DNA of 40,897 nt from a virus: the IMG/VR virus record IMGVR_UViG_3300030519_000008; one strand, given 5' to 3'. Shown here in pieces: positions 1-40,897 of this stretch; within the stretch, counting starts at the first letter, position 1, and every line of letters begins with the position of its first letter. The notes under the pieces were generated by a model. That model saw nothing but the letters and a program-made list of their open reading frames with translations. It was not told where the DNA came from and made no database searches. The translations under genes and the position numbers were made by a program.

Positions 1-127
1 CCAGGCCCACCCCCACATTCAAAGAGCCCCACACCCGGGGCTCTTTCCACATCTACACTACCCTATGAAAATTCAGCAAACTTTCAACTAATCCTTCCCA
101 ACCGTCCCCCACCCCATTACGCTAAGC
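1..127. repeat. Terminal repeat copy 1, identical to 40771..40897. The window is a circularly closing complete genome.
   Basis: Read directly: 1-127 (ccaggcccac...cgctaagc) matches 40771-40897 base for base. The match is bounded only by the two window ends; the base before 40771 (c) has no counterpart. Confidence 0.95.
21..46. terminator. Hairpin between convergent genes (40332..40769 + and 196..843 -) once the window is circularised; probably a bidirectional terminator
   Basis: AAAGAGCCCC (21-30) pairs with GGGGCTCTTT (37-46); loop ACACCC. A-run on one side and T-run on the other. A second copy inside the terminal repeat lies at 40791-40816. Confidence 0.5.
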
Positions 128-195: not shown

Positions 196-843
196 CTACT
201 GCCTCATCCAGACAATGGGCGCCGCCGACGCCAGCCGGCCGCTCTCCACACCCTGCCCATCAAATCTCCCCAGGTTCCACACGCCCGGCTCGTAGCCCTT
301 GGCCACCCAGCGCAGCATCATTCCACCGCTCACCCGCGCATCGCCCAGCAGACGCACCACGCACAAACGCCCCACCGCCTCGGCTGGCACGCCCTGAGCC
401 GTGTCGAAGAAGAAAAGCCAGCCATCGCTCGCCCCACCGACGCCCCGCAGCGCCTGGAGGCCGCCACGGCCTCCCGTCGGCCCATCCACCAGGCGTGGCC
501 CAACCACATCACCGACGTGGCCCCGCCCCTCCGCGTCAATCCACCCCACCACTGGGACTCGGGCAGGGTCCGACGCCTTGACCACTTCCACGCCGGCGCG
601 GCACATGACCTCTTCCACCGTCACGCCGAACGCCTTGGCAAACATGGCCACATCATCCGCTTTCATGCCCTGCAGCCCGTTGGTCATCCGGCCAATCGCC
701 GAATAGTGCAGGCCGACACGCTCACCGAGTCCACGGGTGGTCAGGTGGTTGCGCCGCATCTGCAGCTTGAACCATTCCGAATCTAACCCGGCCAACATCT
801 TCAACTTCCCACTGTCTGAAACCGTCGCGCTATACTTTTTCAT
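196..843 (-). CDS. CI/LexA-like phage repressor: N-terminal XRE-type HTH plus C-terminal S24-peptidase-like domain
   Basis: ORF 196..951 trimmed to ATG 843, with AAGGAGG (849-855) 5 nt upstream. HTH-like LTTRGLGERVGLHYSAIGRMTNGLQ. C-terminal VPVVGWIDAEG...GRLCVVRL...MLRWVAKG...PIVWMRQ has the layout of LexA/CI cleavage domains. Divergent from a Cro-like gene. Confidence 0.8.
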   Translation of the reverse strand: MKKYSATVSDSGKLKMLAGLDSEWFKLQMRRNHLTTRGLGERVGLHYSAIGRMTNGLQGMKADDVAMFAKAFGVTVEEVMCRAGVEVVKASDPARVPVVGWIDAEGRGHVGDVVGPRLVDGPTGGRGGLQALRGVGGASDGWLFFFDTAQGVPAEAVGRLCVVRLLGDARVSGGMMLRWVAKGYEPGVWNLGRFDGQGVESGRLASAAPIVWMRQ

Positions 844-879
844 ACCAGCCTCCTTACAAGCCAACCAAGTGGCGCAACA

Positions 880-908
880 AAGATCGCACCTAGTTACGGT
901 CTGCGCAA
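880..908 (-). promoter_or_regulatory. Candidate weak leftward (repressor-maintenance type) promoter
   Basis: Minus strand: TTGCGC (908-903), 17 nt, GATCTT (885-880). The -35 coincides with the left half of the operator copy at 893-909. Confidence 0.3.
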
Positions 909-909
909 C
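893..909 (-). promoter_or_regulatory. Operator-like 17-mer GTTGCGCAGACCGTAAC (leftward copy)
   Basis: Reverse complement of gttacggtctgcgcaac at 893-909. Perfect match to GTTGCG-N5-CGTAAC. Points toward the repressor gene. Confidence 0.65.
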
Positions 910-959
910 AAAAATAAAAGCGAAACTTAAATTATTTTCACCCCAACGCATCTTATCTC

Positions 960-988
960 TTGACCTTCAGGTGCGCAGATCGTAACTT
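960..988 (+). promoter_or_regulatory. Rightward early promoter, sigma70-like
   Basis: TTGACC (960-965), 17 nt, TAACTT (983-988). The predicted start about 7 nt downstream falls on the ATG at 995. Confidence 0.55.
970..986 (+). promoter_or_regulatory. Operator-like 17-mer GGTGCGCAGATCGTAAC (rightward copy)
   Basis: One mismatch to GTTGCG-N5-CGTAAC. Its 16-nt core TGCGCAGATCGTAACT (972-987) matches the leftward core (892-907, minus strand) at 15/16 positions. Covers the spacer and -10 of the rightward promoter. Confidence 0.65.
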
Positions 989-994
989 GAGCCT

Positions 995-1273
995 ATGAGC
1001 GAACCAAACCCCAACCGAAAATCCGCATCACGTTGCGAAAACCCGGCCTTCAGCCAGGCCGCCAAGATCATCGCCCGGTTCGGTGGTGACTTGAAAATGG
1101 CAGCCGCCCTGGGCGCGCACCGTGTCACCGTCTACCGCTGGACGCACAGCCGGCCGTATGGGTCCGATGGGCTCATCCCGGGGCCAAGCGTCGAGCGTGT
1201 CCTTGAAGCTGCCGAGCGTTGCGGGATCACCCTCACCGCTGAGGACTGGCTGCCTGAACGCATCACCTACTAG
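995..1273 (+). CDS. Cro/YdaS-like small HTH DNA-binding protein
   Basis: 92 aa. MAAALGAHRVTVYRWTH...GLIPGPSVERVLEAA resembles Cro/YdaS-type HTH proteins. Divergent from the repressor. No Shine-Dalgarno sequence upstream. Confidence 0.7.
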   Translation: MSEPNPNRKSASRCENPAFSQAAKIIARFGGDLKMAAALGAHRVTVYRWTHSRPYGSDGLIPGPSVERVLEAAERCGITLTAEDWLPERITY

Positions 1274-1318: not shown

Positions 1319-1945
1319 ATGAAACCTCATCTCCATCTGCTCACCAAACTGGGTGCTTGCCGCGAAGCACAAGCGTTCGCCGGGACCTGCCCTGACCTTG
1401 AAACCGCCTGGAACACCTGCGACCGGTCCGACTGGATGATCTGGCTGCTGCGCCGGCTGAAATACGACGACGCCAAGGTCTATCGGCTGTACTCGTGCTG
1501 GTGCGTGCGTAACACCCCATTGGCCAATGGCCGGATGGTGTGGGATCTGCTGACCGATCCGCGCAGCCGGAACGCCGTGGTGGTAGCGGAACGGTTTGCG
1601 GTGGGTGAAGCTACTGCTGACGAACTGCGCGAAGCACGCAACGCCGCCGACGCCGCCGCCGCCGCCACCTACGCCGACGCCACCACCTACGCCGCCGACG
1701 CCGCCGCCACCACCTACGCCGCCGACGCCGCCGCCACCGCCGCCGACGCCGACGCCACCGCCGCCACCTACGCCGACGCCGCCACCACCACCGCCGCCTA
1801 CGCCGACGCCGCCGCCACCTACGCCTACGCCTACGCCTACGCCTACGCCAAAGCCACCTACGCCTGGACGGCAGCCCGAAAGGCGCAGGCCCGGCAACTG
1901 CGTGAGATGGTTCCTTTCAACATTATCGCGGGGCTGATCAAGTGA
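1319..1945 (+). CDS. Early protein with a Cys/Trp-rich N-domain and an Ala/Asp/Thr/Tyr low-complexity array
   Basis: AAGGAG (1307-1312) lies 6 nt before ATG 1319. N-terminal ...GACREAQAF...AWNTCDRSDWMIWLLRRL.... About 75 aa are made almost only of A/D/T/Y and end in YAYAYAYAYA. C-terminal ARKAQARQLREMVPFN. Confidence 0.75.
   Translation: MKPHLHLLTKLGACREAQAFAGTCPDLETAWNTCDRSDWMIWLLRRLKYDDAKVYRLYSCWCVRNTPLANGRMVWDLLTDPRSRNAVVVAERFAVGEATADELREARNAADAAAAATYADATTYAADAAATTYAADAAATAADADATAATYADAATTTAAYADAAATYAYAYAYAYAKATYAWTAARKAQARQLREMVPFNIIAGLIK
1641..1866. repeat. Cryptic GC-rich simple-sequence tract built from GCC/GAC/ACC/TAC triplets
   Basis: Visible tandem variants of gccgccgacgccgccgccaccacctac. 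Several other reading frames stay open across it (spurious ORFs 1596..1937 + and 1028..1897 -). Confidence 0.9.
1820..1849. repeat. Perfect hexanucleotide microsatellite (TACGCC)x5
   Basis: tacgcc repeated five times at 1820-1849, in frame as (Tyr-Ala)5. Confidence 0.95.
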
Positions 1946-3112: not shown

Positions 3113-4554
3113 TGCAAATTGAGACGCCCTATCCTTACCAGCTGACCGGAGCCGACTACCTGGCCGCCCATCCGCAGGCCTTCCTTGCCGACGACATGGG
3201 CCTTGGGAAGTCGTGTCAGGCGGTGGTTGCGTCCGACCTGATTGGCGCCGACCGGATCCTGGTGCTATGCCCGGGCAGCGTGCGGGTCAACTGGGAAAGG
3301 GAGTTCCAGAAGTTCAGCCCGATGGACCGGCCCTGCCGGGTGCTGATGACCGGAGGGGATGAAGTGCCAACCACAGGCGTGGTCATCTGCAGCTATGATC
3401 TGCTGGTGGCGCCCACGTCCGGCAAAGCGGAGAAGCGGGCGAAGAAGGCGCCGGAAGACCAAGCCTTAAAAGCCAAGGCCAAGGCCGCGCGCCAGCTCAA
3501 AGCGAAGCGTCAGGCCTTCCTCCACGCCATCCAGGCTACCCGGTGGGACGTCCTGGTGCTCGATGAAGCCCAATACCTGAAGGACAGGGGCGCCGGCCGC
3601 ACCACCGCGGTCTTTGGCCGCAACATCAACGACCTGGGCATCGCTGGCAACGTCGATCGCATCTGGCGCCTATCCGGCACCCCAGCCCCCAACAACGTCA
3701 GCGAACTCTGGATCCACCTGCGCAGCGCCGGCATCATCACGATGGGCTACTATGACTTCGTGGCGCGCTACTGCGTCTGCATCGAAGGGAAGTTCGACGT
3801 CAAGATCGTCGGGGTCAAGAACGCCGATGAACTGAAGGGGCTGCTGGCTCAGTTCATGCTGCGCCGGATGAAGGCCGACGTCCAAGCCGACCTGCCGCCC
3901 ATCCGCTTCGAGGAAGTGGTTGTCGAGGCGAGCCCGGTGCTGCTGGACGCATCCTGGGGCCCGGGCGCCGCGGACGAAATCCGGGTGGGCGAGCAGACGC
4001 TGTCCCAAGCCTTGGCCGCCATTGCGCCTGACGCCGCCCTGGGGCTGCTGAAGACCGAGGGGGTGGCGATGGCCACGCTCAGGCGCTACACCGGCCTGGC
4101 GAAGCTCCCAGGCATCCTGGCGATCATCAAGGAAGAGCTGGAGTCGGGCGCCCTGGATAAGATCGTCCTGTTCGGGATCCACCAGGCGGTGATCGAGCAA
4201 ACCCAGAAGGCCCTGGCCAATTTCGGCGCCGTCTCCGTCTACGGTAAGACGCCCGGGCCCCAGCGCCAGGCCAACATCGACCGGTTCAGCAAGGACCCAT
4301 CTTGCCGGGTCATCGTCGGAAATATCACGGCCGCCGGCGTGGGCGTCAACGGCATGCAGGACAGCTGCAGCGAGGTGGGCCTGCTGGAGTCCAGCTGGGT
4401 TCCCAGCGACAACGCCCAGGCCGTCGCCCGCGTGCATCGCAACGGCCAGTCAAAGTCAGTCAGAGTGCGGGTATTCAGCCTGCACAACTCCAGCGATGAG
4501 CCGGTGAACGCCGCACTCATCCGCAAGATCCGCGAGCTTGCGAAAATATTTTAA
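3112..4554 (+). CDS. SNF2/Rad54-family helicase (ATPase)
   Basis: ORF 2992..4554 trimmed to ATG 3112. DDMGLGKSCQ (motif I), LVLDEAQYLKD (motif II), LSGTPAPNN (motif III), GNITAAGVGVNG and QAVARVHRNGQ (motifs V and VI). Confidence 0.9.
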   Translation: MQIETPYPYQLTGADYLAAHPQAFLADDMGLGKSCQAVVASDLIGADRILVLCPGSVRVNWEREFQKFSPMDRPCRVLMTGGDEVPTTGVVICSYDLLVAPTSGKAEKRAKKAPEDQALKAKAKAARQLKAKRQAFLHAIQATRWDVLVLDEAQYLKDRGAGRTTAVFGRNINDLGIAGNVDRIWRLSGTPAPNNVSELWIHLRSAGIITMGYYDFVARYCVCIEGKFDVKIVGVKNADELKGLLAQFMLRRMKADVQADLPPIRFEEVVVEASPVLLDASWGPGAADEIRVGEQTLSQALAAIAPDAALGLLKTEGVAMATLRRYTGLAKLPGILAIIKEELESGALDKIVLFGIHQAVIEQTQKALANFGAVSVYGKTPGPQRQANIDRFSKDPSCRVIVGNITAAGVGVNGMQDSCSEVGLLESSWVPSDNAQAVARVHRNGQSKSVRVRVFSLHNSSDEPVNAALIRKIRELAKIF

Positions 4555-4561
4555 AATTTCT

Positions 4562-4591
4562 GTTGCGAATGCCGTAACGGGGACCTAATCT
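4562..4591 (+). promoter_or_regulatory. Internal promoter with an overlapping operator-like 17-mer
   Basis: GTTGCGAATGCCGTAAC at 4562-4578 is a perfect motif match. TTGCGA (4563-4568), 17 nt, TAATCT (4586-4591). Confidence 0.55.
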
Positions 4592-9959: not shown

Positions 9960-12125
9960 ATGACGATCCTCAATCAAGCTCTGGCCCTGGCGTCCCGCGG
10001 CTTCCACGTCTTCCCGCTCAAGAACAACGGCAAGCTCCCGGCGCACAAAGGCTGGCAGGATTCTGCCACCCGCGACCCCAAGCAGATCACCAAGTGGTTC
10101 TCCAACCAGAAGTTCAACATCGGAATTTCAACCAGCAAGTTCGGCGAGGACCAGGCCTTGTGCGTGGTCGACGTCGATGACAAGGGGGTCAAACATGGAA
10201 GCGAAACCCTGCTCGGACTCGAACTCGACGGCATCGAGTTTCCGGTTACCTGTGAGCACTCCACTCCCTCGGGCGGTAGGCATCTCATTTACGTGTGCGA
10301 TGCGCCGCTGCGCCAAGGCACGGACGTCCTCGGAAGCGGCCTCGACATCCGCTCACGCGGTGGCCTCATCGTCGGCCCTGGCTCCGAGATTGACGGCAAA
10401 GCCTACGCCCAGATCAATGGCCACTCCCAGCTCGCATCTGCGCCCGCCTGGCTGGTCACGCGCCTGGGTGTGGACGCTGGTGCTCGTCGCAGCGACAGCA
10501 CTCCTGTTGGCGGGGTCGATCCTCTACGCGCTGCTGAGCGCGCTATCGGCTACCTGAAGGATGCGGCGCCGGCGCTGGAAGGCCAGGGTGGCGACACCCA
10601 CACCTACAAGATCTTCCAGGCGCTGAAGGACATGGGCTGCACGCTGGACCAGGCGGTGCTGCTGGCCGATGAGCACTGGAACGAGCGCTGCTGCCCGCCC
10701 TGGTCTCTCGATGAGCTTTTGAAACTCGCTGACCACGCCTACAAATATGGCCGTGAGCAGCCCGGGTGCTCCGCGCCCGAAGCTATCTTCGAACCGGTCG
10801 AGCCGCCCAAAGACCCAGGTGCCAAGCTCCATCCCTTCGCCGAGATCAACCGGGAGTATGCGCTCATCAAGCAGGGCTGCTTCATCCTCCAGGAGACCAC
10901 CGACGAGGAGGGCAACCGCATCATAGAGCGCTTGCCCATCAGCGATTTCCATAACTGGTTCGCTAACAAGCCTTGGGCCACTGGCAAAGAGAAGCCGAGG
11001 CCCATCAGCCAGCACTGGATGGAGTGGTCTGGACGCCGGCAGTATGACGCCGTGACTTTCATGCCCGGGAAGGACATGGGGCCCCGCTGGTACAATTTAT
11101 GGCAGGGGTTCAGCGTCGAGCCGGCCAAGGGTAAGGCCGACCATCCGTCCCTTGACCTGTTCCTGGAGCATGCGTTGAAGAACGTGTGCGGCAACGACCC
11201 CAAGCTTTTCCACTGGCTCATGGGGTTCTTCGCCCACATGATCCAGCGCCCCTGGGAGAAGCCCCTAGTGGCCCTGGTGTTCAAGGGCAAGAAGGGCACC
11301 GGAAAGAATGCGCTGGTGGAACGGGTGGGCCATCTCATCGGTGTCCACTTCCTTGTCGCCACCAGCGAGCGCTACCTGGTGGGGAACTTCAACAGCCACC
11401 TGGAACACAATCTGTGCCTGGTGCTGAACGAAGCCACCTGGGCCGGCGACAAGAAGACTGAAGGCATCCTCAAAGGCCTGGTCACTGAGAACAAGATGCT
11501 GATCGAGCACAAGGGCAAAGAGGCCCGCAACAAGCAGAACGTGTCTCGCATCATGCTCCTGGGCAACGAGGACTGGGTGGTTCCGGCCAGCCAGGAAGAG
11601 CGCAGGTTCGCCGTGTTCAATGTGGGCGAAGAGCGCATGCAGGACAAGCCGTTCTTCATCGCCATGCGTGAGGGCATGGAGCAGGGCGGCTACTCCCACC
11701 TCCTGCGCTACCTGCTGGACTTCGACCTCTCCACCGTCGACATCAACGACGCGCCGAAGACCCAGGGCCTGGTGGAGCAGAAGCACGCCAGCCTGGAGAT
11801 CGTCGAAGAGTGGTGGCTGAACTGCCTGATGTCGGGCGAAATGCTGGGGTCGGACTTCGGTGGTGAGTGGCCAGACAGCGCCAACACCAATCGTCTGCGC
11901 GATGCGTGCCAGCGGTGGGCCGGCAAGCGCAACGTGAAGGGCAGGATGCCCAGCGACATCGCCTTCGGCAAGACCCTGCGCCGTGTGGCGCCTTCGTTCA
12001 AGAGCAAGAAGGCCAGGCCAGACAAGCCTGGCGACACCAGCTACGCGTTCTTCAGCCCTGGGCTGGAACGGCTGCGGGCTGACTGGGTGAAGTTCATCGG
12101 AGGAGAGGTAGAATGGCCAGAATGA
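9960..12125 (+). CDS. Bifunctional primase-polymerase (PrimPol-like) fused to a D5/VirE-type P-loop helicase
   Basis: ORF 9888..12125 trimmed to ATG 9960. N-terminal FHVFPLKNNGKLPAHKGWQ, VVDVDDK, GGRHLIY, IRSRGGLIVGPGS. C-terminal Walker A FKGKKGTGKN and Walker B-like CLVLNEA. Confidence 0.85.
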   Translation: MTILNQALALASRGFHVFPLKNNGKLPAHKGWQDSATRDPKQITKWFSNQKFNIGISTSKFGEDQALCVVDVDDKGVKHGSETLLGLELDGIEFPVTCEHSTPSGGRHLIYVCDAPLRQGTDVLGSGLDIRSRGGLIVGPGSEIDGKAYAQINGHSQLASAPAWLVTRLGVDAGARRSDSTPVGGVDPLRAAERAIGYLKDAAPALEGQGGDTHTYKIFQALKDMGCTLDQAVLLADEHWNERCCPPWSLDELLKLADHAYKYGREQPGCSAPEAIFEPVEPPKDPGAKLHPFAEINREYALIKQGCFILQETTDEEGNRIIERLPISDFHNWFANKPWATGKEKPRPISQHWMEWSGRRQYDAVTFMPGKDMGPRWYNLWQGFSVEPAKGKADHPSLDLFLEHALKNVCGNDPKLFHWLMGFFAHMIQRPWEKPLVALVFKGKKGTGKNALVERVGHLIGVHFLVATSERYLVGNFNSHLEHNLCLVLNEATWAGDKKTEGILKGLVTENKMLIEHKGKEARNKQNVSRIMLLGNEDWVVPASQEERRFAVFNVGEERMQDKPFFIAMREGMEQGGYSHLLRYLLDFDLSTVDINDAPKTQGLVEQKHASLEIVEEWWLNCLMSGEMLGSDFGGEWPDSANTNRLRDACQRWAGKRNVKGRMPSDIAFGKTLRRVAPSFKSKKARPDKPGDTSYAFFSPGLERLRADWVKFIGGEVEWPE

Positions 12126-12589
12126 ATGACATGAAGGTAGCCGCGCTGTGCGCCGCCTGCGGCTGGACGACGGTGGGTGACGCCTACCCCATCGTGTGTG
12201 CCCATTGCCAGCAAGTGGTCCACGGGCCTGGGACGTATAAGTTGGTCGACCCCAAATCGGCCGAAGCGGATCCTCTCGGCATCGCTCCCCACGAACCCGG
12301 GGCCAAGCTGGACGCGGGTAAGATCCGCCCGTGGCTGTGCGTCTCGGGATTCTCCCGCGCGCTGGCGAAGGTGGCCGACGTCACGACCAAGGGCGCCGCC
12401 AAGTATTCCCCAAACGGATGGATGGAAGTGCCTGATGGGCAGGCCCGGTACATGGATGCCTTCGGCCGCCACATGCTGGCCCTGGGCCAAGGCGAGACGA
12501 CTGACCCCGACACGGGCTGCCTGCACAAGGCGCAGATGATCTGGAACCTGCTGGCCAGTCTAGAACTGGATCTGAGGCAGGAGCCGTGA
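12113..12589 (+). CDS. Zinc-ribbon plus DUF5664-like (dATP/dGTP diphosphohydrolase N-terminal-type) domain protein
   Basis: AGGAGAGG (12101-12108) before ATG 12113. N-terminal CAACGW...CAHC. C-terminal KLDAGKIRPW...GAAKYSPNGW...DAFGRHMLALGQGETTDPDTGCLHKAQMIWNLLASLEL fits my recollection of the DUF5664 consensus. Confidence 0.65.
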   Translation: MARMNDMKVAALCAACGWTTVGDAYPIVCAHCQQVVHGPGTYKLVDPKSAEADPLGIAPHEPGAKLDAGKIRPWLCVSGFSRALAKVADVTTKGAAKYSPNGWMEVPDGQARYMDAFGRHMLALGQGETTDPDTGCLHKAQMIWNLLASLELDLRQEP

Positions 12590-14210: not shown

Positions 14211-14522
14211 TCAATGTCTTCCGGGGACGGGTTCTTCGGTCTGCGCGGTGCGAGGCTTGGCGACCAAGTAAAACTTCTGCCTGTCCTCGCGCAGATTGGT
14301 TTCGTAGCTGGTCTTGAGCGCGTCCTGCTCAAACTGCAGCCGGTCGATGCGCTGATTGGCCGAGCGGATCTCCACTCCATTGGCCGCCATGGTTTCGCAT
14401 AGGCGCTGGACGGTGGTGTTGAGCATTTCCAACTTGCCCCCGAACCAGACGATGATGAGCCCGACCGCCCCGATTAGGATGCGGTCGAGCCAGGAGCCGA
14501 GAGTGGCGCGGCGCTCGGTCAT
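14211..14522 (-). CDS. N-terminal TM plus coiled-coil protein (i-spanin-like topology)
   Basis: ORF 14211..14540 trimmed to ATG 14522, which overlaps the tailspike stop (ATGA). TM WLDRILIGAVGLIIVWFGG, followed by heptad-like QRLCETMAANGVEIRSANQRIDRLQFEQDALKTSYE. Confidence 0.6.
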   Translation of the reverse strand: MTERRATLGSWLDRILIGAVGLIIVWFGGKLEMLNTTVQRLCETMAANGVEIRSANQRIDRLQFEQDALKTSYETNLREDRQKFYLVAKPRTAQTEEPVPGRH

Positions 14523-17053
14523 CAGTAGCTCGGATACCAATGGCTGTCAGCGGTATTCCACGTAAGAATCAGGGATTTACCCGGGATAGCCGTAGAAGCC
14601 ATACCGATGTTACCGGAAACCCCTGTTGTCCAAGTGGACCCAGCTTGGGGTAAAAGAGTGATTGTGGGCCAGGATCCAAGGGTAATATTCTGGATAGTCC
14701 CGGATGAATTGACGCCGATGACTTGGGCGCTTGGAGTGATAGTGGCTGCGGCAGCAATTACCCCCACAGCAGGCATCCCCTGGTTATTGACAATCAGGCC
14801 AGGGTTGGTGAACACGGGGGCAGTACTTAGGAATGTGTTTCCCTCGACCACACATCGGTTCGCTACCGTGATTTGGTCGGTAAAGACCAGCCCCTGGCTG
14901 TTAGTGAAAACGTTATTGCTTACAACAGCGTTGGCGCATTTCGTGAAGTTCGTCAGACGGAAGCACTGGTTGCCAATAAAAGGCGCGGTATAAAATCCGC
15001 TTCCAGTTGTTGCACCGTTAATTTCAAAGTTGATAGAGTCTGGGTTCCCAGACCCAGGCGATGCGCCCGAAATAGTGCAACCTGTGAAGGGGACGTTCAC
15101 ATTGGACCCGGCGTTCGTGCTGGTGTCCATGATATTCAATCTTGAGGTATTCCCCACACTGGTGGAAGGGATAGTGAATTGGCAGGTTGATACTGCTCCA
15201 TTCACCGTCACATTTGCCCCCAGCTTGAACACCGTTACTTCGGATGTATTGGAAGGGGCTGCACATATGAATTGCACGTTGGAAATCTGGATATTAGGGC
15301 CGCTACCTCCAGTGTAGACCGCAAATATAAAGTTGCTGTTCCCGGTGCCGCCGATGGAGTTACCCGTCATGCTCACAGTGCAATCGGTCATGCGAACCAA
15401 TGGTTGCACCACTCCTGTTGTATTGATGGCAAAAAGGTTTGAAACGATGCTGGATTGGTTTGTCCAGACTACGCTGTTTCTCATATTTAAGGAACATCCG
15501 GAGCCAATAGTAAAATCGGCTCCTCCGCTTAGTAAAACAAAGTCTTTAACTGCTTCCATATATGTATCTAAAATCTGCATTGATCCTGAACTTAGTACGA
15601 ACGCAGTTACACCAGTCATTGCGGTTCCGGTTCCGGCTCCCGCGCCCGTGGCTACAAAAACAGTGCCCGCAGTATTAGATGGCGCCCCGATGGCGACAAA
15701 GTTGGTGGTTCCAGGGGAGAGGATGGTGTAGACGTTTCCAGATATAAACGATCCTGCCGGGATCGTGTTGCAATACATGGCTTCTTCGCAGTAGCAGGAG
15801 ACACAAGTGCAGAAGTTTGGACCCCAGTTGGCGCCAATGTAGGCTGTGCCAGTCCCGGCTCCTGGGCCAGTAGCCGTGAAAGTGAGGCCGGCTGTATTGG
15901 ATGCGGCACCGATGGCAATCCAGTTGGTTGTCCCAACAACGCTAATAACATATTGGGTTCCTGCAACGAAGCTACCCGCAGAAACAAGCGGGGTATTTGA
16001 TAAATTCCACCCGATCCCTACCGGGCGATAGTTTTTTACGTGAAAAAAATGGGTTAGGATGGATTCACCAACAACGTTGGCGATCTGAGTGTAGAAACAG
16101 GTAACGTCCTCCCCGTTGAAATAGGGCATCCGGTAGATGTTCCAAAGGTAAGTATTGGTGTTATAGGTTGACGAATTCCCGATGACCTGACAGCCTCGGA
16201 AGGTCGTGTGTGCGCAAACAAAAATTGACCCCCCGATATAGCCGGGATTGTAACGGAATGCCGCAACAGTGGTATTATTCGCCAGACTGATTATGGTTCC
16301 GTCGAACTCGAAACTGCAACCAATGGGGCAAAATATCGTCCCATCGATTCTCAAAGTTCCTTTTGGAACTCTGATCTTTACGGGAGTTGGCATGACAGCG
16401 GTTGGAAGGTTCACGTTGACGCCGCTGAAATAGCCGTTGGTTGTATTGGTTGCATCATTGACGGCAACCTGAATCGCTGTAGTGCTATCCGTAACCCCAG
16501 TCAGGTCGATTCCAGGCCAATCAGTCAAGGAGACAACATCAGCATTTTTATTGTGCTGCAAACGAGAAGCTGCGTTGGGATATGGAGCCTTCACCGCCAG
16601 CAGTGCGTCACCCTGTCCTGCGGCTGGGGAGGCGAGAGGCGCGAGGATCTGCGCGATGGTCAGCCCAGGCGAAGCCAGGTTCTGGATCTGCCCCTGCAGC
16701 TGCTGCGCCAGCAACACGGCATGGTCAGCCGCGGCTTCATGGGAAGCAGCTGGGAACGGGTCGCCTTCAACCCAGTGGGTGAGTTGCGTGAAGGGCTCGT
16801 TCAGCAGGATCGAGAGAACCTGCACCGCGTTCTTGGGCGCCACGAAAAGCGACACGGTGACGAACAGGCCGCCCACCGAGGTGAGCGTGTAGTCCGAGTT
16901 CAGCACCAGCGTCCGCACCACAGGCGAAGCCGGAATGGTGTTGTCGGTGAGGATCACCAGCGGCGCCGAGATGCAGTTCGAAGGCGCGTTGAAGCTGGTC
17001 GTGACGCCATTGCCCGTGTAGTTAACCACCGGGTTGTTGCTCTGAACGGTCAT
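14522..17053 (-). CDS. Tail fibre / tailspike with a conserved N-terminal anchor and a beta-helix (pectate-lyase-like) receptor-binding or depolymerase body
   Basis: SD CAGGAG before ATG 17053. The N-terminal ~150 aa are typical of podovirus fibre adaptors. VSLTDWPGIDLTGVTDSTTAIQVAVNDA resembles the start of pectate-lyase-type tailspikes. Asn/Thr/Gly/Val-rich beta-helix-like repeats follow. Confidence 0.85.
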   Translation of the reverse strand: MTVQSNNPVVNYTGNGVTTSFNAPSNCISAPLVILTDNTIPASPVVRTLVLNSDYTLTSVGGLFVTVSLFVAPKNAVQVLSILLNEPFTQLTHWVEGDPFPAASHEAAADHAVLLAQQLQGQIQNLASPGLTIAQILAPLASPAAGQGDALLAVKAPYPNAASRLQHNKNADVVSLTDWPGIDLTGVTDSTTAIQVAVNDATNTTNGYFSGVNVNLPTAVMPTPVKIRVPKGTLRIDGTIFCPIGCSFEFDGTIISLANNTTVAAFRYNPGYIGGSIFVCAHTTFRGCQVIGNSSTYNTNTYLWNIYRMPYFNGEDVTCFYTQIANVVGESILTHFFHVKNYRPVGIGWNLSNTPLVSAGSFVAGTQYVISVVGTTNWIAIGAASNTAGLTFTATGPGAGTGTAYIGANWGPNFCTCVSCYCEEAMYCNTIPAGSFISGNVYTILSPGTTNFVAIGAPSNTAGTVFVATGAGAGTGTAMTGVTAFVLSSGSMQILDTYMEAVKDFVLLSGGADFTIGSGCSLNMRNSVVWTNQSSIVSNLFAINTTGVVQPLVRMTDCTVSMTGNSIGGTGNSNFIFAVYTGGSGPNIQISNVQFICAAPSNTSEVTVFKLGANVTVNGAVSTCQFTIPSTSVGNTSRLNIMDTSTNAGSNVNVPFTGCTISGASPGSGNPDSINFEINGATTGSGFYTAPFIGNQCFRLTNFTKCANAVVSNNVFTNSQGLVFTDQITVANRCVVEGNTFLSTAPVFTNPGLIVNNQGMPAVGVIAAAATITPSAQVIGVNSSGTIQNITLGSWPTITLLPQAGSTWTTGVSGNIGMASTAIPGKSLILTWNTADSHWYPSY
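15620..15979 (-). repeat. Two ~46-aa intragenic repeats flanking a Cys-rich linker inside the tailspike
   Basis: aa 359-404 AGSFVAGTQYVISVVGTTNWIAIGAASNTAGLTFTATGPGAGTGTA. aa 433-478 AGSFISGNVYTILSPGTTNFVAIGAPSNTAGTVFVATGAGAGTGTA. Linker NFCTCVSCYCEEAMYC. Confidence 0.85.
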
Positions 17054-37224: not shown

Positions 37225-37658
37225 CTATCGCGTGAGGACTTGGCCCCGGGCTTCACGGCGCCGGCCCGAATCCGGCCCCCCGGCTCCCTCTGGCCGAAAG
37301 ATCGCAAGGGTCCCCCTCGACCAGGCCTGAGCGTTCGCCCACGTCCAGACGCGCCGGCCGGCCCCTGCGGATGGGGTGCGATAGCAATGACGTGCTCATC
37401 AAAGAGTCGATATTTATGAGCGTGCAGCTGACAGTTATGAATGATGAGTAGCGCACCTATACAGCATATGGGTTTTAGGCTTATGAACAATGTTACATAA
37501 TGGTCGTTATCTAAAGCTATGAGCGTGACGCATGAGAGATGATGGGGGATGCGCAGATAGAAATGAGTTTCATTTAGAACTCTCTTCTATTTGGAACGTG
37601 GGATGCCGGCCGCGGGCCCGCGGATTCGTCGCACCCCAAAAATAGTTCGAAAATAGTT

Positions 37659-37687
37659 GTTGCGCATTTCGTAACATGGCCTAACCT
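37659..37687 (+). promoter_or_regulatory. Accessory-operon promoter with an overlapping operator-like 17-mer
   Basis: GTTGCGCATTTCGTAAC at 37659-37675 is a perfect motif match. TTGCGC (37660-37665), 16 nt, TAACCT (37682-37687). GGAGG at 37696-37700. Confidence 0.55.
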
Positions 37688-37707
37688 TGAGTCATGGAGG
37701 AAACACA

Positions 37708-37884
37708 ATGGATAACCTGGCAGTCATGCAAGGCTTCACTGAAGAGGTCACACTGACCGGCTCGGAGCATGATCTTTACCTGCTGATCAAGCCTTGCACT
37801 GACATGGATTCCAGGTTCAAAGCTTGGGACACCGATTGCCAGGAATTCATCTACGTCAACGGTTGGCTGTTCAATCGGGAGTAG
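37708..37884 (+). CDS. Small acidic hypothetical protein, 58 aa
   Basis: ORF 37687..37884 trimmed to ATG 37708, 7 nt after GGAGG. Low-GC codon usage. Confidence 0.55.
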   Translation: MDNLAVMQGFTEEVTLTGSEHDLYLLIKPCTDMDSRFKAWDTDCQEFIYVNGWLFNRE

Positions 37885-37886
37885 AG

Positions 37887-37958
37887 ATGAACCACTTCGG
37901 CCGATTCATCCTATTCTTTGTCCTCATCGCAACCCTCACCCTTCACTTTTTCTTCTAA
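37887..37958 (+). CDS. Hydrophobic micro-ORF, 23 aa with one TM-like segment
   Basis: Hand translation: MNHFGRFILFFVLIATLTLHFFF. GGGAG 5 nt upstream. Exactly fills the gap between two genes. Confidence 0.35.
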   Translation: MNHFGRFILFFVLIATLTLHFFF

Positions 37959-37970
37959 CGGAGTCCAACC

Positions 37971-38360
37971 ATGTCAGCGTATCTCTGCAGTGAACGCCAT
38001 ATCTCCGCAGTTGCAACGATCGTTGCACAGAATCCCGGGATGTATTTGTTGCTTGGTTCGATCTTTGACCAGCTGGTCATGGACAATGTTGCCAGCTTGC
38101 AAGCGCGGTATCCACATGACCCGGACATGTGGGAAGGGTATGATGAATACTGCGTTCAACTGGTCAAAGTGGATTTGAAGACGACCCAAGGTAAAGCGCA
38201 AGCGCTCAAGGCCTTGAATTGCTACTCATATCAGGCCTGCGAGTTTGACGGATGGGGAAAGTCAGACTCTTACCAATGGGTCGAATTCGCCATTGCCAAG
38301 CTTGAAAAGACTGTTTCCAAAGAATCCAGCGAGTATCAATCCTCCGACTGGGGGTTTTAA
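37971..38360 (+). CDS. Hypothetical protein, 129 aa; partner of the GP88-like gene
   Basis: GGAG 7 nt before ATG 37971. Contains SERHISAV..., ...ASLQARYPHD... and LNCYSYQACEFDGWGKSDSY. I recognise the general pattern from phage hypothetical proteins but cannot name a function. Confidence 0.7.
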   Translation: MSAYLCSERHISAVATIVAQNPGMYLLLGSIFDQLVMDNVASLQARYPHDPDMWEGYDEYCVQLVKVDLKTTQGKAQALKALNCYSYQACEFDGWGKSDSYQWVEFAIAKLEKTVSKESSEYQSSDWGF

Positions 38361-38362
38361 CC

Positions 38363-39016
38363 ATGTTCTCTGCAATTCCCCCAATCCAAGTAAAAACACT
38401 CAATCTGTTGTCAAAGCAGAACCAAAAGCTTGGCAAGGGTATCGCCAGCTGGTCTATCAGCTCTGGCATCAGCTGCCCCGGAAAAACTCCGGCCTGCAGC
38501 GCTTGCTATGCCGACGCTATGGAAAACCAGGGGCCCCACGCGGCCGCCATCAAAAAGGGGTGGGCCAAGCGCTATCAGATGACCTTTGACCTTGACGCGC
38601 TGGAATCCAGCCTATCCAAGGATCTAGCCAAGCTTGCGCCCGGCACTCCGGTGCGGATCCATGTATCTGGTGACTTCCATAATTCGGAATACGTCATGTT
38701 CTGGCGTTCGATCGCTCAGCGCTTCCCGGACTTGGCCTTCTTTGGCTACACTCGCAGCTGGCGTGTCCCATCGCTCATGCCGGCACTTGAAGCGCTTCAC
38801 GCTAGGCCGAATGTTACGCTTTTTGCATCGATGGATGAATATTGCACTCTGCCACCCAATGGATGGCGCTATGCCATGATGGGGACCTTGAATGGTCATC
38901 CAGCACCCGGCACCATTCTTTGTCCTGAGTTAACAAAAAAGGTATCAGACTGTGGATCCTGTAAACTTTGCTTCAACAAATCGGCAAAGCTCTCCGTGAC
39001 ATTCCCAATCCACTAG
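38363..39016 (+). CDS. Cys-rich GP88-like (Gp37/Gp68-DUF5131-like) protein; possible Fe-S enzyme
   Basis: QNQKLGKGIASWSISSGISCPGKTPACSACYA (C-x5-C-x2-C-Y-A) at the N-terminus and CPELTKKVSDCGSCKLC near the C-terminus. Starts 3 nt after the previous stop. Confidence 0.7.
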   Translation: MFSAIPPIQVKTLNLLSKQNQKLGKGIASWSISSGISCPGKTPACSACYADAMENQGPHAAAIKKGWAKRYQMTFDLDALESSLSKDLAKLAPGTPVRIHVSGDFHNSEYVMFWRSIAQRFPDLAFFGYTRSWRVPSLMPALEALHARPNVTLFASMDEYCTLPPNGWRYAMMGTLNGHPAPGTILCPELTKKVSDCGSCKLCFNKSAKLSVTFPIH

Positions 39017-39071
39017 AATCTAACCCGGGCCCTGCTATCGTGGCGGGGCCCCAATCTCTTGAGGTGACCCA

Positions 39072-39422
39072 ATGCGAGACCTTGAATCTAGACTTGCAAA
39101 GTGCAAGAAAGTCGTTGACGAACACTCAGCGATCCACGCTATGGAATTCGTGGATCAAGCCAAGATAAAGAAAATCTCAGTGCAGGCCTTGACCAATCGC
39201 GCGGAAAAAGATGCCAGTGTCCGAGGTGCCAGGGTGGATCACTGCACTATTTCCGCGCCTCAGGCCTTTGGGGAATGGCTGAACCTGAGATCCATACGCC
39301 CATACTTCCTTTGCGATAACACGATAGGGCTGGACGTCAAAGGGGCCCATCGCATTAAAGATATGTACATGCTTTGGTATGACAATGCGCATTGGGCCCG
39401 GGCCCAAAGGCCTATCAAATGA
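39072..39422 (+). CDS. Hypothetical protein, 116 aa
   Basis: GAGGTGA 5 nt before ATG 39072. No motif recognised. Confidence 0.6.
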   Translation: MRDLESRLAKCKKVVDEHSAIHAMEFVDQAKIKKISVQALTNRAEKDASVRGARVDHCTISAPQAFGEWLNLRSIRPYFLCDNTIGLDVKGAHRIKDMYMLWYDNAHWARAQRPIK

Positions 39423-39523
39423 GACACCGTCTCATCCTCTGCGCAGTCTTCGCTGCCATCATCTATGGAATCATCCAAGGCCTACCTTGCGCCGTCCAAG
39501 CGACCCTTGACCTATTCCACTGA
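39419..39523 (+). CDS. Hydrophobic micro-ORF, 34 aa with one TM-like segment
   Basis: Hand translation: MRHRLILCAVFAAIIYGIIQGLPCAVQATLDLFH. ATGA overlap with the upstream stop. Confidence 0.35.
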   Translation: MRHRLILCAVFAAIIYGIIQGLPCAVQATLDLFH

Positions 39524-39561
39524 CCCATTCTGTCCGTTCTCGATCCCCCAGGAGTCACCCC

Positions 39562-39786
39562 ATGGCGTTCCAGATCCCAGAGCCCTCCGTCTCCCTGAAG
39601 TCCAAGCTGACCACTCTCGCCAAGTCTGCCCACCACCGGGTCCGGTTGATCACCGATGACGAATTTGCGGAGATCAAGGGCACGGTCTGCCTGGAGGAGG
39701 ACGCGAAGGGCTGGTTCATGTTTGACAAGCGCCAAATCGTCCTGGATCAGCGCAGCAATGGGCAGCGCGTGATCTTCGCCGTCTAA
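39562..39786 (+). CDS. Hypothetical protein, 74 aa
   Basis: CAGGAG upstream of ATG 39562. Followed by a terminator. Confidence 0.6.
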   Translation: MAFQIPEPSVSLKSKLTTLAKSAHHRVRLITDDEFAEIKGTVCLEEDAKGWFMFDKRQIVLDQRSNGQRVIFAV

Positions 39787-39810
39787 ACCTAGAATGTCCG
39801 TTCTCAACCC

Positions 39811-39834
39811 AAGGCCCCCGTCACCGGGGGCCTT
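39811..39834 (+). terminator. Rho-independent terminator of the accessory operon
   Basis: AAGGCCCCCG-TCAC-CGGGGGCCTT: a 10-bp stem followed by a T-rich tail. Confidence 0.7.
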
Positions 39835-39858
39835 TCACATTACCGCTTTACGATTTCA
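39835..39858. repeat. 24-bp direct repeat, copy 1 (TCACATTACCGCTTTACGATTTCA)
   Basis: 23/24 identical to 39923-39946. Period 88 bp. Non-coding. Confidence 0.9.
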
Positions 39859-39922: not shown

Positions 39923-39946
39923 TCACATTACCGCTTCACGATTTCA
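39923..39946. repeat. 24-bp direct repeat, copy 2 (TCACATTACCGCTTCACGATTTCA)
   Basis: 23/24 identical to 39835-39858. Confidence 0.9.
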
Positions 39947-40770: not shown

Positions 40771-40897
40771 CCAGGCCCACCCCCACATTCAAAGAGCCCC
40801 ACACCCGGGGCTCTTTCCACATCTACACTACCCTATGAAAATTCAGCAAACTTTCAACTAATCCTTCCCAACCGTCCCCCACCCCATTACGCTAAGC
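40771..40897. repeat. Terminal repeat copy 2, identical to 1..127
   Basis: Base-for-base identity with 1-127. Confidence 0.95.
40791..40816. terminator. Hairpin 22 nt after the stop of 40332..40769 (same element as 21..46)
   Basis: AAAGAGCCCC-ACACCC-GGGGCTCTTT. Confidence 0.5.

What the first reader, a model, noticed from the sequence alone, without database searches (positions are those of the whole stretch)
37708..39786. Low-GC seven-gene accessory operon under direct repressor-operator control: candidate undescribed system
From 37700 to 39800 the G+C drops. The line starting at 38161 has 29/60 G+C, against 41/60 in the line starting at 9001. This indicates foreign origin.

The operon is driven by a promoter whose -35 lies inside a perfect operator copy, and it ends at a strong terminator. 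It encodes products of 58 aa, a 23-aa TM peptide, 129 aa, a 217-aa Cys-rich GP88-like protein, 116 aa, a 34-aa TM peptide and 74 aa. None has an assigned function.

The combination is a putative Fe-S enzyme, a tightly linked partner and two membrane micro-proteins. It sits at the genome position where podoviruses keep host-takeover genes. This makes it the best candidate in the window for a novel DNA/nucleotide-modification, anti-defence or superinfection-exclusion module.
Basis: partly seen in the sequence, partly recalled or inferred. Interest (0 to 1): 0.7.

Follow-up and report, generated by a model that had tools for sequence, protein, structure and literature searches.

The report
Shuffled early accessory genes of phage
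This stretch is the first early-gene block of a podovirus genome assembled from a metagenome, probably switched by the phage's own repressor, but its seven small genes are independently swapped cassettes rather than one coordinated new system.

Summary
The sequence-level observations hold. There are seven co-oriented ORFs of 58, 23, 129, 217, 116, 34 and 74 aa. G+C falls to 52.9% against 62.4% for the genome. A perfect copy of a 15-nt motif sits 33 nt upstream, and its only other perfect copies lie between the CI-like and Cro-like genes. A -20.8 kcal/mol hairpin closes the block. The 217-aa product is a clear Pfam GP88 member.

The interpretation as one coherent system does not hold. In the nearest relatives the genes are exchanged one by one. 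L089 keeps the 129-aa gene (95%) but has no GP88 and no 116-aa gene. L003 keeps GP88 (88%) behind an unrelated 129-aa gene. L170 has neither. None of 80 GP88 loci carries a 129-aa-family gene, and none of 80 loci of that family carries GP88.

What persists across relatives is a scaffold: the promoter/operator cassette, both micro-peptide genes, a hairpin linker and the terminator.

The closest precedent is mycobacteriophage L5. Its gp88, the founding GP88 member, is the second ORF behind the repressor-controlled Pleft promoter.

All seven functions remain unknown. The 129-aa protein belongs to a large family (449 cluster representatives) with no Pfam, PHROG or NCBIfam model and a confident all-alpha model that has no PDB match.

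The parts
37634..37707 (+). Promoter/operator/RBS cassette of about 75 bp that ends at the first start codon
   Evidence: It is 96% identical in relative L089. There it occurs twice (L089 about 3336-3407 and 3635-3706), each copy in front of a different small gene. It is 88% identical in L170.
37661..37675 (+). Operator-like 15-mer TGCGCATTTCGTAAC
   Evidence: One of exactly three perfect copies in the window. The other two lie in the cI/cro intergenic region. Both L089 cassette copies carry it perfectly.
37660..37687 (+). Putative sigma-70-type promoter: -35 TTGCGC, 16-nt spacer, -10 TAACCT (inferred, weak)
   Evidence: Read from the sequence. Not called by the consensus scan. A2 and T6 of the -10 are kept in L089, which has TACCCT.
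37708..37884 (+). orf58, 58 aa, unknown function, poorly conserved
   Evidence: ORF with a GGAGG ribosome-binding site. No family match. The only relative is a 23-residue match in one viral contig. Absent from L089 and L170.
37887..37958 (+). orf23, a 23-aa hydrophobic micro-protein (MNHFGRFILFFVLIATLTLHFFF), part of the conserved scaffold
   Evidence: An intact 23-codon ORF in L003, L006, L089 and L170, 52-78% identical. Hydrophobicity is retained and third-position changes outnumber second-position changes.
37971..38360 (+). orf129, a member of a large unnamed all-alpha protein family
   Evidence: 449 cluster representatives at E <= 1e-3. Conserved motifs are MSAxLCSxxH, ENxxSLxARY, CYxYQACE and Y..APWG. 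No Pfam, PHROG or NCBIfam model. AF2 pLDDT 96.8. No PDB fold or sequence match.
38363..39016 (+). GP88-family protein (PF17338, 217 aa) with two Cys clusters
   Evidence: Pfam E = 3.3e-21. Invariant residues include C38-x6-C45-x2-C48, R98, G103, D104, Y129-T130-R131-S132, S156, D158 and C197-x2-C200-x2-C203. AF2 pLDDT 88. BFVD matches are GP88/DUF7227 proteins plus one Gp37/Gp68-like protein. 27% identical to L5 gp88, E = 6e-13.
39002..39074 (+). Conserved inter-cassette linker: the last GP88 codons, a hairpin at 39027-39051, and the RBS and start codon of the next gene
   Evidence: 79-84% nucleotide identity in L003, L006 and L087, although the genes on either side differ or are only 40-42% identical. 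The stretch 39010-39072 that contains the hairpin folds at -24.4 kcal/mol, z = -2.6.
39072..39422 (+). orf116, unknown function
   Evidence: Five relatives at 61-91% identity. It follows a divergent GP88 in L087. It occurs without GP88 in L085 and L086. It is absent from L003, L006, L089 and L170.
39419..39523 (+). orf34, a 34-aa hydrophobic micro-protein, part of the conserved scaffold
   Evidence: Conserved in L003 (72%), L087 (68%), L089 (79%) and L170 (88%), with a partial match in L085/L086. Its start overlaps the orf116 stop codon (ATGA).
39562..39786 (+). orf74, unknown function, with native-like composition
   Evidence: 100% identical in L089 and absent from L170. GC3 is 0.85. It is flanked by 16-nt direct repeats at 39531-39546 and 39795-39810.
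39811..39834 (+). Terminator-like hairpin followed by UUU
   Evidence: -20.8 kcal/mol, z = -3.99, with no shuffle folding as well. It lies in a segment that is 97% identical in L089.
196..846 (-). CI-like HTH repressor candidate, the presumed operator-binding protein
   Evidence: Weak HTH_31 and HTH_26 matches. It is divergent from a Cro-like gene at 995-1273 (P22_Cro E = 1e-3; carph-isopro domain E = 2.7e-9). 93% identical in L089 and 84% in L170.
893..986 (.). The two other perfect operator copies, 893-907 (-) and 972-986 (+), in the cI/cro intergenic region
   Evidence: Each points towards its downstream gene. The + copy overlaps a TTGACC-17-TAACTT promoter-like site.

Best explanation
The stretch is the early accessory operon of a roughly 40.8-kb circular podovirus-type phage genome, probably from an Acidobacteriota host.

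A 75-bp promoter/operator/RBS cassette carries the same 15-nt site that occurs twice between the CI-like and Cro-like genes. I infer that the phage's immunity regulator shuts the operon off, and that it is transcribed at the start of lytic growth as far as the hairpin at 39811-39834.

The seven products do not work together as a machine. They are independent, individually exchangeable cassettes. They are held in a conserved scaffold made of the P/O cassette, the two micro-protein genes, a hairpin linker and the terminator. Those conserved 70-100-bp segments probably serve as recombination points for swapping cassettes between related phages.

Within this set, GP88 is most likely a stand-alone metal- or Fe-S-binding partial-barrel enzyme that acts early on a nucleic-acid or nucleotide substrate. 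orf129 is a stand-alone small protein with enzyme-like conservation. The two micro-proteins are membrane-inserted early peptides. The product functions and repressor binding are inferred. The anatomy and the mosaicism are shown.
For: Operator. There are three perfect copies and all are intergenic. Each points towards its downstream gene, 8-46 nt before the start codon.

P/O cassette. It is conserved, and duplicated in front of two different genes in L089.

Gene-by-gene replacement in relatives:
- L089 has orf23, orf129, orf34 and orf74, but no orf58, GP88 or orf116.
- L170 keeps only the P/O cassette, orf23, orf34 and the repeats.
- L003 has GP88 at 88% behind an unrelated 129-aa gene and ahead of a 64-aa zinc-ribbon gene.
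- L006 has orf23 directly ahead of a GP88 only 42% identical.
- L005 has GP88 as the first gene after the terminase genes.
- L087 has a 40%-identical GP88 followed by orf116 and orf34, next to the immunity genes.
- L085 and L086 have an orf116-like gene without GP88.

Co-occurrence. It is 0 of 80 in each direction. No neighbouring gene family occurs in more than 11 of the 80 GP88 loci or more than 10 of the 80 orf129-family loci.

Breakpoints. Recurrent breakpoints fall at 39002 and 39074.

Composition. Low G+C marks this region in all close relatives.

Precedent. L5 gp88 is the second ORF downstream of Pleft (TSS at 51,672 in PMC5712189).

GP88 fold. The AF2 model places the Cys loop after strand 1 and SGD after strand 2. 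The weak best PDB matches are to NifB, a radical SAM enzyme. One BFVD match is Gp37/Gp68-like. RadicalSAM.org lists that family, DUF5131, as a radical SAM subgroup (PMC9477430).
Against: No transcription or binding data exist.

The promoter hexamers are weak and host promoter rules are unknown.

The operator is asymmetric, which is unusual for a dimeric HTH repressor. It could instead be bound by the Cro-like protein.

The CI-like protein matches HTH models only below Pfam's cut-off. No integrase was found, so a temperate lifestyle is not established.

The terminator has only three U. A second strong hairpin inside the operon (39027-39051) could divide it into two transcription units.

GP88 and orf116 are adjacent in two genomes with divergent GP88 alleles, so a two-gene relation is not fully excluded.
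Confidence: 0.75

Rival explanations
1. One reading: the seven genes form one coherent, undescribed DNA-modification, anti-defence or superinfection-exclusion system. GP88 is the Fe-S enzyme, orf129 its obligate partner, and the two micro-proteins its membrane components.
For: The genes are tightly packed on one strand, with 2-nt gaps and one overlap. They share one upstream operator and one downstream hairpin. All are of unknown function.
Against: Co-occurrence fails at every scale. orf129 at 95% identity occurs without GP88, and GP88 at 88% occurs without orf129. None of 160 family-seeded viral loci holds both. There are no PADLOC matches.
Confidence: 0.04
2. A smaller functional pair exists inside the block. 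Either GP88 works with orf116, or the 23-aa micro-protein works with GP88.
For: GP88 and orf116 are adjacent in the window and in L087, even though the two GP88 proteins are only 40% identical. orf23 lies upstream of GP88 in the window, L003 and L006.
Against: L003, L005 and L006 have GP88 without orf116. L085 and L086 have an orf116-like gene without GP88. L089 and L170 have orf23 without GP88. L004 and L005 have GP88 without orf23. In L087 the shared nucleotide similarity starts only at 39002, so the adjacency may simply reflect the common linker.
Confidence: 0.1
3. The conserved 23-aa and 34-aa ORFs are not proteins. They are conserved DNA or RNA elements (recombination linkers or regulatory leaders) that happen to stay open.
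For: They are the best-conserved pieces of an otherwise fluid region, and they sit at cassette boundaries. Non-synonymous codon changes equal or outnumber synonymous ones in all 12 pairwise comparisons but one (window against L089 for orf34).
Against: ORF length, start codon and hydrophobic character are kept in four or five genomes at 52-88% identity. Third-position changes outnumber second-position changes. orf34 is translationally coupled to orf116 through an ATGA overlap.
Confidence: 0.15

Closest known systems
Early right-arm operon of mycobacteriophage L5 (cluster A), driven by Pleft and repressed by gp71
   Same: The founding GP88 member, L5 gene 88 (49663-50382), is the second ORF downstream of the repressor-controlled early lytic promoter, whose TSS is at 51,672 (PMC5712189). 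It is 27% identical to the window protein, E = 6e-13. It sits among many small genes of unknown function. From my own knowledge, the L5 repressor also recognises an asymmetric site that overlaps the promoter.
   Different: The host phylum (Actinobacteria) and virion type (siphovirus) differ. L5 has a long non-coding RNA before the first gene. L5 has many 'stoperator' copies across its genome, whereas here there are three perfect copies and one near copy. No other gene of the block is shared.
Lambdoid PL/PR-type immunity circuits with hypervariable early accessory ('moron' or nin/b-like) regions, and the modular theory of phage evolution with conserved linker sequences (from my own knowledge)
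   Same: The same operator is used at the immunity region and at a distant early promoter. The accessory genes are small, dispensable-looking, compositionally deviant and swapped between relatives. Short conserved segments lie at the exchange points.
   Different: The early operon is transcribed towards the repressor gene rather than away from it. The operator is asymmetric, with one copy per promoter rather than three. No N- or Q-type antiterminator has been identified.
DUF5131 (phage Gp37/Gp68), listed as a radical SAM superfamily subgroup
   Same: One Gp37/Gp68-like viral protein is a fold match to the GP88 model, with E = 1.2e-3 and TM 0.62. From memory, both have an N-terminal three-Cys motif ending in CYA. 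RadicalSAM.org lists DUF5131 in the superfamily (PMC9477430).
   Different: No GP88 member matches the Pfam model for that family or for Radical_SAM at E <= 1. The Cys spacing differs from CX3CX2C. GP88 has an additional C-terminal four-Cys cluster.

Membership tests
Pfam GP88 (PF17338) | Match to the family HMM above the curated cut-off | tested here: met
   76.6 bits against a cut-off of 24.4, E = 3.3e-21. All 52 aligned relatives match the model.
Pfam GP88 (PF17338) | Homology to the founding member, L5 gp88, with the family's conserved motifs | tested here: met
   BLASTP E = 6e-13 with 27% identity, aligning the CPG..C..CYA, RIH.(S/D)GDF and YTR motifs and the C-terminal Cys cluster. The invariant columns are listed.
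Radical SAM superfamily | Canonical CX3CX2C cluster motif | tested here: not met
   The motif is C38-x6-C45-x2-C48 here and C-x6-C-x3-C in most relatives.
Radical SAM superfamily | Sequence match to Radical_SAM (PF04055) or related Pfam models | tested here: not met
   None of the 52 members matches at E <= 1. There is one Fer4_6 match at E = 0.086.
Radical SAM superfamily | Partial (beta/alpha) barrel, with the Cys loop after strand 1 and a GGE-like motif after strand 2, similar to solved radical SAM structures | tested here: inconclusive
   The AF2 topology is compatible. The best PDB matches are NifB at probability 0.57-0.80, over only 84 columns, with E >= 0.058.
Radical SAM superfamily | Binds a [4Fe-4S] cluster and cleaves S-adenosylmethionine | not testable with these tools
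   This needs anaerobic purification, UV-vis or EPR spectroscopy, and a 5'-deoxyadenosine assay.
Multi-gene functional system (defence, anti-defence or modification module) | The component genes co-occur in other genomes | tested here: not met
   0 of 80 and 0 of 80 in reciprocal neighbourhood scans. The closest relatives carry different subsets of the genes.
Multi-gene functional system (defence, anti-defence or modification module) | Similarity of any component to known defence-system proteins | tested here: not met
   PADLOC gives no match, apart from a 9.9-bit chance-level hit.
Immunity-controlled early operon (lambda PL-type or L5 Pleft-type) | The operator sequence is shared with the repressor/cro intergenic region and overlaps the promoter | tested here: met
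   Three perfect copies, two at cI/cro and one 33 nt upstream of orf58. It is conserved, and duplicated together with the cassette in L089.
Immunity-controlled early operon (lambda PL-type or L5 Pleft-type) | A functional promoter at the site | tested here: inconclusive
   The hexamers each match only 3 of 6 positions and were not called by the scan. Host sigma-factor specificity is unknown.
Immunity-controlled early operon (lambda PL-type or L5 Pleft-type) | The repressor binds the site and silences transcription | not testable with these tools
   This needs EMSA or footprinting, plus expression data.
Unnamed orf129 family | Full-length homology and shared motifs (MSAxLCSxxH, ENxxSLxARY, CYxYQACE, Y..APWG) | tested here: met
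   449 representatives at E <= 1e-3. The invariant residues are M1, S2, N39, S42, R46, Y47 and Y87.

The most novel reading that the evidence does not exclude
At least one of the stand-alone cassettes has a truly new activity that phages use in the first minutes of infection. The candidates are the orf129 family (449 cluster representatives, no model in any library, invariant N-terminal Met-Ser and enzyme-like conserved residues, and a confident all-alpha model without a PDB match) and GP88 (a minimal Fe-S or zinc barrel enzyme found in bacterial and archaeal viruses). A second possibility is that the conserved micro-protein genes and the hairpin linker form a dedicated scaffold for cassette exchange in early operons.
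Probability: 0.15. Interest if true: 0.6.

Novelty: new member of a known kind. Interest (0 to 1): 0.3.

Why it matters
It removes a false lead: there is no seven-gene system here to chase.

It leaves three concrete things instead:
- A clean natural example of cassette shuffling in an early operon. The breakpoints map to 70-100-bp conserved segments, one of them a promoter/operator cassette caught duplicated in a relative.
- A candidate repressor-operator pair for phages of Acidobacteriota, a host group with almost no phage genetics.
- Two widespread phage protein families of unknown function, GP88 and the unnamed orf129 family. Their recurrent position next to the first early promoter makes them reasonable targets for anti-defence or host-takeover screens.

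Tried and rejected
Searches that found nothing:
- Megablast of the region against 50,697 phage records.
- Rfam and tRNA scans of the whole window.
- PDB sequence and profile searches for GP88, orf129 and orf116.
- Foldseek against the PDB: no significant match for GP88 or orf129.
- Pfam, PHROGs and NCBIfam for orf58, orf116, orf74 and orf145, and PADLOC for all operon products.
- Pfam, PHROGs and NCBIfam on 50 orf129-family members. Only three single-member PHROG hits resulted, each to a family of unknown function.
- Literature searches for PF17338, DUF7227, PF07505 and 'gene product 88'. Only one relevant line turned up, on DUF5131.
- Exact-pattern scans for the P/O cassette. They found only the L089 contig in IMG/VR and nothing in the JGI metagenomes.

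Dead ends:
- I tried to obtain a DUF5131 sequence for a profile-profile test. My recollection that Bcep781 gp37 is a member was wrong; that protein is 63 aa. A motif search of all fetched loci returned only GP88 variants. The link from GP88 to DUF5131 and radical SAM therefore rests on one Foldseek hit.

Rejected ideas:
- TAACAT at 37672-37677 as the -10 element. L089 has TAACAC there, and no -35 lies at a usable distance.
- The 127-bp terminal repeat as a true terminal redundancy. An exact 127-nt overlap is what assemblers leave on circular contigs (the assembler behaviour is from my own knowledge).
Full report
**What the window is.** Bases 1-127 repeat exactly at 40771-40897. An exact overlap of that length is typical of an assembler closing a circle (my own knowledge). 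The window is therefore one circular genome of about 40.8 kb.

The minus strand from about 13 to 37.2 kb carries a T7-type podovirus structural module. It includes a major head protein, tail tubular proteins A and B, internal virion proteins, a tail fibre, and TerS and TerL.

The plus strand runs from 37.7 kb through the junction to 12.6 kb. It carries the block in question, an immunity region and a replication module. The immunity region has a CI-like HTH gene at 196-846 on the minus strand, divergent from a Cro-like gene at 995-1273. The replication module has an SNF2 helicase, DUF2800, an Enc34-type SSB, PolA and a primase-polymerase.

TerL relatives at 66% and 57% identity lie in Holophaga and Terriglobales MAGs. 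One of them is inside a 553-kb contig. The host is therefore probably an acidobacterium, and related prophages exist.

**Checking the observation.** All seven ORFs exist with the stated sizes, on one strand. Gaps are 2-55 nt and one junction is an ATGA overlap.

The block is 52.9% G+C against 62.4% for the genome. GC3 is 0.57-0.71 for orf58 to orf34, against 0.80-0.91 for core genes. orf74 has GC3 0.85 and does not share the signature.

The 'operator' is real as a sequence feature. TGCGCA-N3-CGTAAC has three perfect copies in the genome. Two lie in the cI/cro intergenic region. The third lies 33 nt before the orf58 start codon. Each points towards its downstream gene.

The promoter hexamers are weak and the scan did not call them.

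The closing hairpin is strong (-20.8 kcal/mol, z = -4.0) but is followed by only three U.

The 217-aa product is an unambiguous Pfam GP88 member.

| Relative | Similarity to the window | What its early region holds |
|---|---|---|
| L089 | 92-97% nt in the flanks | P/O cassette, orf23, orf129 (95%), orf34, orf74 (100%); other genes in place of orf58, GP88 and orf116 |
| L170 | about 90% nt in the replication genes | only the P/O cassette, orf23, orf34 and the downstream repeats |
| L003 | GP88 88% | GP88 behind an unrelated protein that also happens to be 129 aa, followed by a 64-aa zinc-ribbon gene |
| L006 | GP88 42% | orf23 immediately before GP88 |
| L005 | GP88 57% | GP88 as the first gene after the terminase genes |
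| L087 | GP88 40% | GP88, then orf116 (79%) and orf34, next to the immunity genes |
| L085/L086 | orf116-like 66% | no GP88 |
| Unfetched contig (sample ERZ1426849) | orf129 homologue (P0094) 67% | followed by genes of 52, 161 and 151 aa |

At family scale the result is the same. None of 80 GP88-seeded viral loci (plus or minus 6 kb) contains an orf129-family gene. None of 80 orf129-family loci (plus or minus 4 kb) contains GP88. No neighbouring gene family recurs in more than 11 loci for GP88 or 10 loci for the orf129 family. The recurrent neighbours are terminases on the opposite strand, DNA methyltransferases and replication genes.

**What is conserved instead.** Across the relatives the stable pieces are short:
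- The 75-bp promoter/operator/RBS cassette. In L089 it is present twice, each copy with a perfect operator and each driving a different small gene.
- The 23-aa and 34-aa hydrophobic ORFs. They are intact in four or five genomes, and third-position changes exceed second-position changes.
- A 73-bp linker at 39002-39074 with a near-invariant hairpin. It is shared by four genomes that have different genes on either side.
- The terminator together with a pair of 23-nt direct repeats.

Similarity to the relatives repeatedly starts or stops at these segments. I therefore read them as the points where cassettes are exchanged by homologous recombination.

The region is 6-9 G+C points below its flanks in every close relative, whatever genes it carries. 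That fits a shared pool of cassettes better than a single foreign acquisition.

**The individual products.**

*GP88.* The family has these invariant or near-invariant features:
- an N-terminal GN.KLG motif;
- a C-x6-C-x2/3-C-Y-A motif;
- RIHVSGDF, YTRSWR and S.D motifs;
- a C-terminal Cys cluster.

The AF2 model (pLDDT 88) is a small beta/alpha barrel-like fold. The Cys loop follows strand 1 and SGD follows strand 2.

No PDB match is significant. The most probable ones are to the radical SAM enzyme NifB, over 84 columns. Among predicted viral structures the model matches GP88/DUF7227 proteins of bacterial and archaeal viruses. It also matches one Gp37/Gp68-like protein. That family, DUF5131, is listed as a radical SAM subgroup (PMC9477430).

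No GP88 member matches a radical SAM Pfam model. I therefore treat 'Fe-S enzyme' as a reasonable guess and do not file GP88 as a radical SAM member.

370 cultured phage genomes carry a relative. Most are cluster A mycobacteriophages and Streptomyces phages, and in every record listed the gene is annotated as hypothetical.

*orf129.* The word-index search found only two relatives. The exhaustive search found 449 cluster representatives. Conservation is strikingly enzyme-like. No Pfam, PHROG or NCBIfam model covers the family. The all-alpha model has pLDDT 96.8 and no PDB match.

*orf58, orf116 and orf74.* They have few or no relatives and no annotation.

[quoted passage not shown] Pleft is the repressor's main target (PMC5712189). 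A GP88 gene close behind the first repressor-controlled early promoter, as here, has thus been seen before.

The overall arrangement matches lambdoid and L5-type immunity circuits with hypervariable early accessory genes. One operator is shared between the immunity region and a distant early promoter. The small genes behind that promoter are compositionally odd and swappable.

**Verdict.** It is a new member of a known kind of feature.

The residual interest lies in three things. The orf129 and GP88 families are uncharacterised early-gene families. The scaffold-and-cassette organisation is unusually clear. And there is a testable repressor-operator pair for an acidobacterial phage.

Noticed in passing
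window 1-127 and 40771-40897: An exact 127-bp terminal direct repeat. It most likely marks an assembler overlap on a circular contig, so the window is a complete genome of about 40,770 bp.
   Followed up: partly
L089 3336-3407 and 3635-3706: In the closest relative the 75-bp promoter/operator/RBS cassette is duplicated in tandem. Each copy has a perfect operator and a different small gene behind it (66 aa zinc-ribbon-like and 68 aa).
   Followed up: yes
window 39002-39074: A conserved 73-bp linker with a near-invariant hairpin (39027-39051). Four genomes share it although different genes lie on either side. It is a recurrent recombination breakpoint and possibly also an RNA processing or attenuation site.
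   Followed up: partly
window 39836-39858 and 39924-39946: Two 23-nt direct repeats (CACATTACCGCTTYACGATTTCA), 88 bp apart, in a 545-bp non-coding stretch after the terminator. They are conserved in L089, L170 and L171. No other copy exists in the genome and their function is unknown.
   Followed up: partly
window 39531-39546 and 39795-39810: 16-nt direct repeats (TGTCCGTTCTCGATCC and TGTCCGTTCTCAACCC) flank orf74. That gene has native-like GC3 and is missing from L170.
   Followed up: no
window 4564-4578: A one-mismatch copy of the operator (TGCGAATGCCGTAAC) lies in the short gap between the SNF2 helicase gene and the next gene, pointing the same way as that gene. It may be a fourth regulated site.
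   Followed up: no
window 14300-16600 (ORF 14522-17053, minus strand): A second low-GC island (52.6% G+C, GC3 0.59) coincides with the 843-aa tail-fibre-like gene. Only the N-terminal ~240 residues of that protein match PHROG families (tail-protein and unknown-function).
   Followed up: partly
window 1596-1895 (inside ORF 1319-1945): About 20 copies of a 9-nt periodic repeat encode an Ala/Thr/Tyr/Asp-rich low-complexity tail in the 208-aa gene after cro. The L087 homologue matches only the first 107 residues.
   Followed up: no
window 12113-12589: The last gene of the replication module carries a dATP/dGTP diphosphohydrolase N-terminal domain (PF18909, E = 8e-24). From my own knowledge this domain is linked to aminoadenine (Z) genomes. 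No ORF of PurZ size is apparent in the window.
   Followed up: no
window 960-995: The Cro-like gene's annotated start codon lies only 8 nt after the operator and the TAACTT -10-like element. The transcript is therefore either leaderless or the true start is further downstream.
   Followed up: no
whole window; L173, L174: No integrase was recognised among the ORFs I scanned, despite the CI/Cro-like pair. TerL relatives sit in Holophaga and Terriglobales MAGs, one of them in a 553-kb contig. This suggests acidobacterial hosts and prophage relatives.
   Followed up: partly
L052, L055, L061, L064-L067, L075, L077, L078, L080, L081, L084: In a separate group of viral contigs GP88 again lies 1.7-2.7 kb from divergently transcribed TerS and TerL genes. 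This is the same early position next to the packaging genes as in the window.
   Followed up: partly
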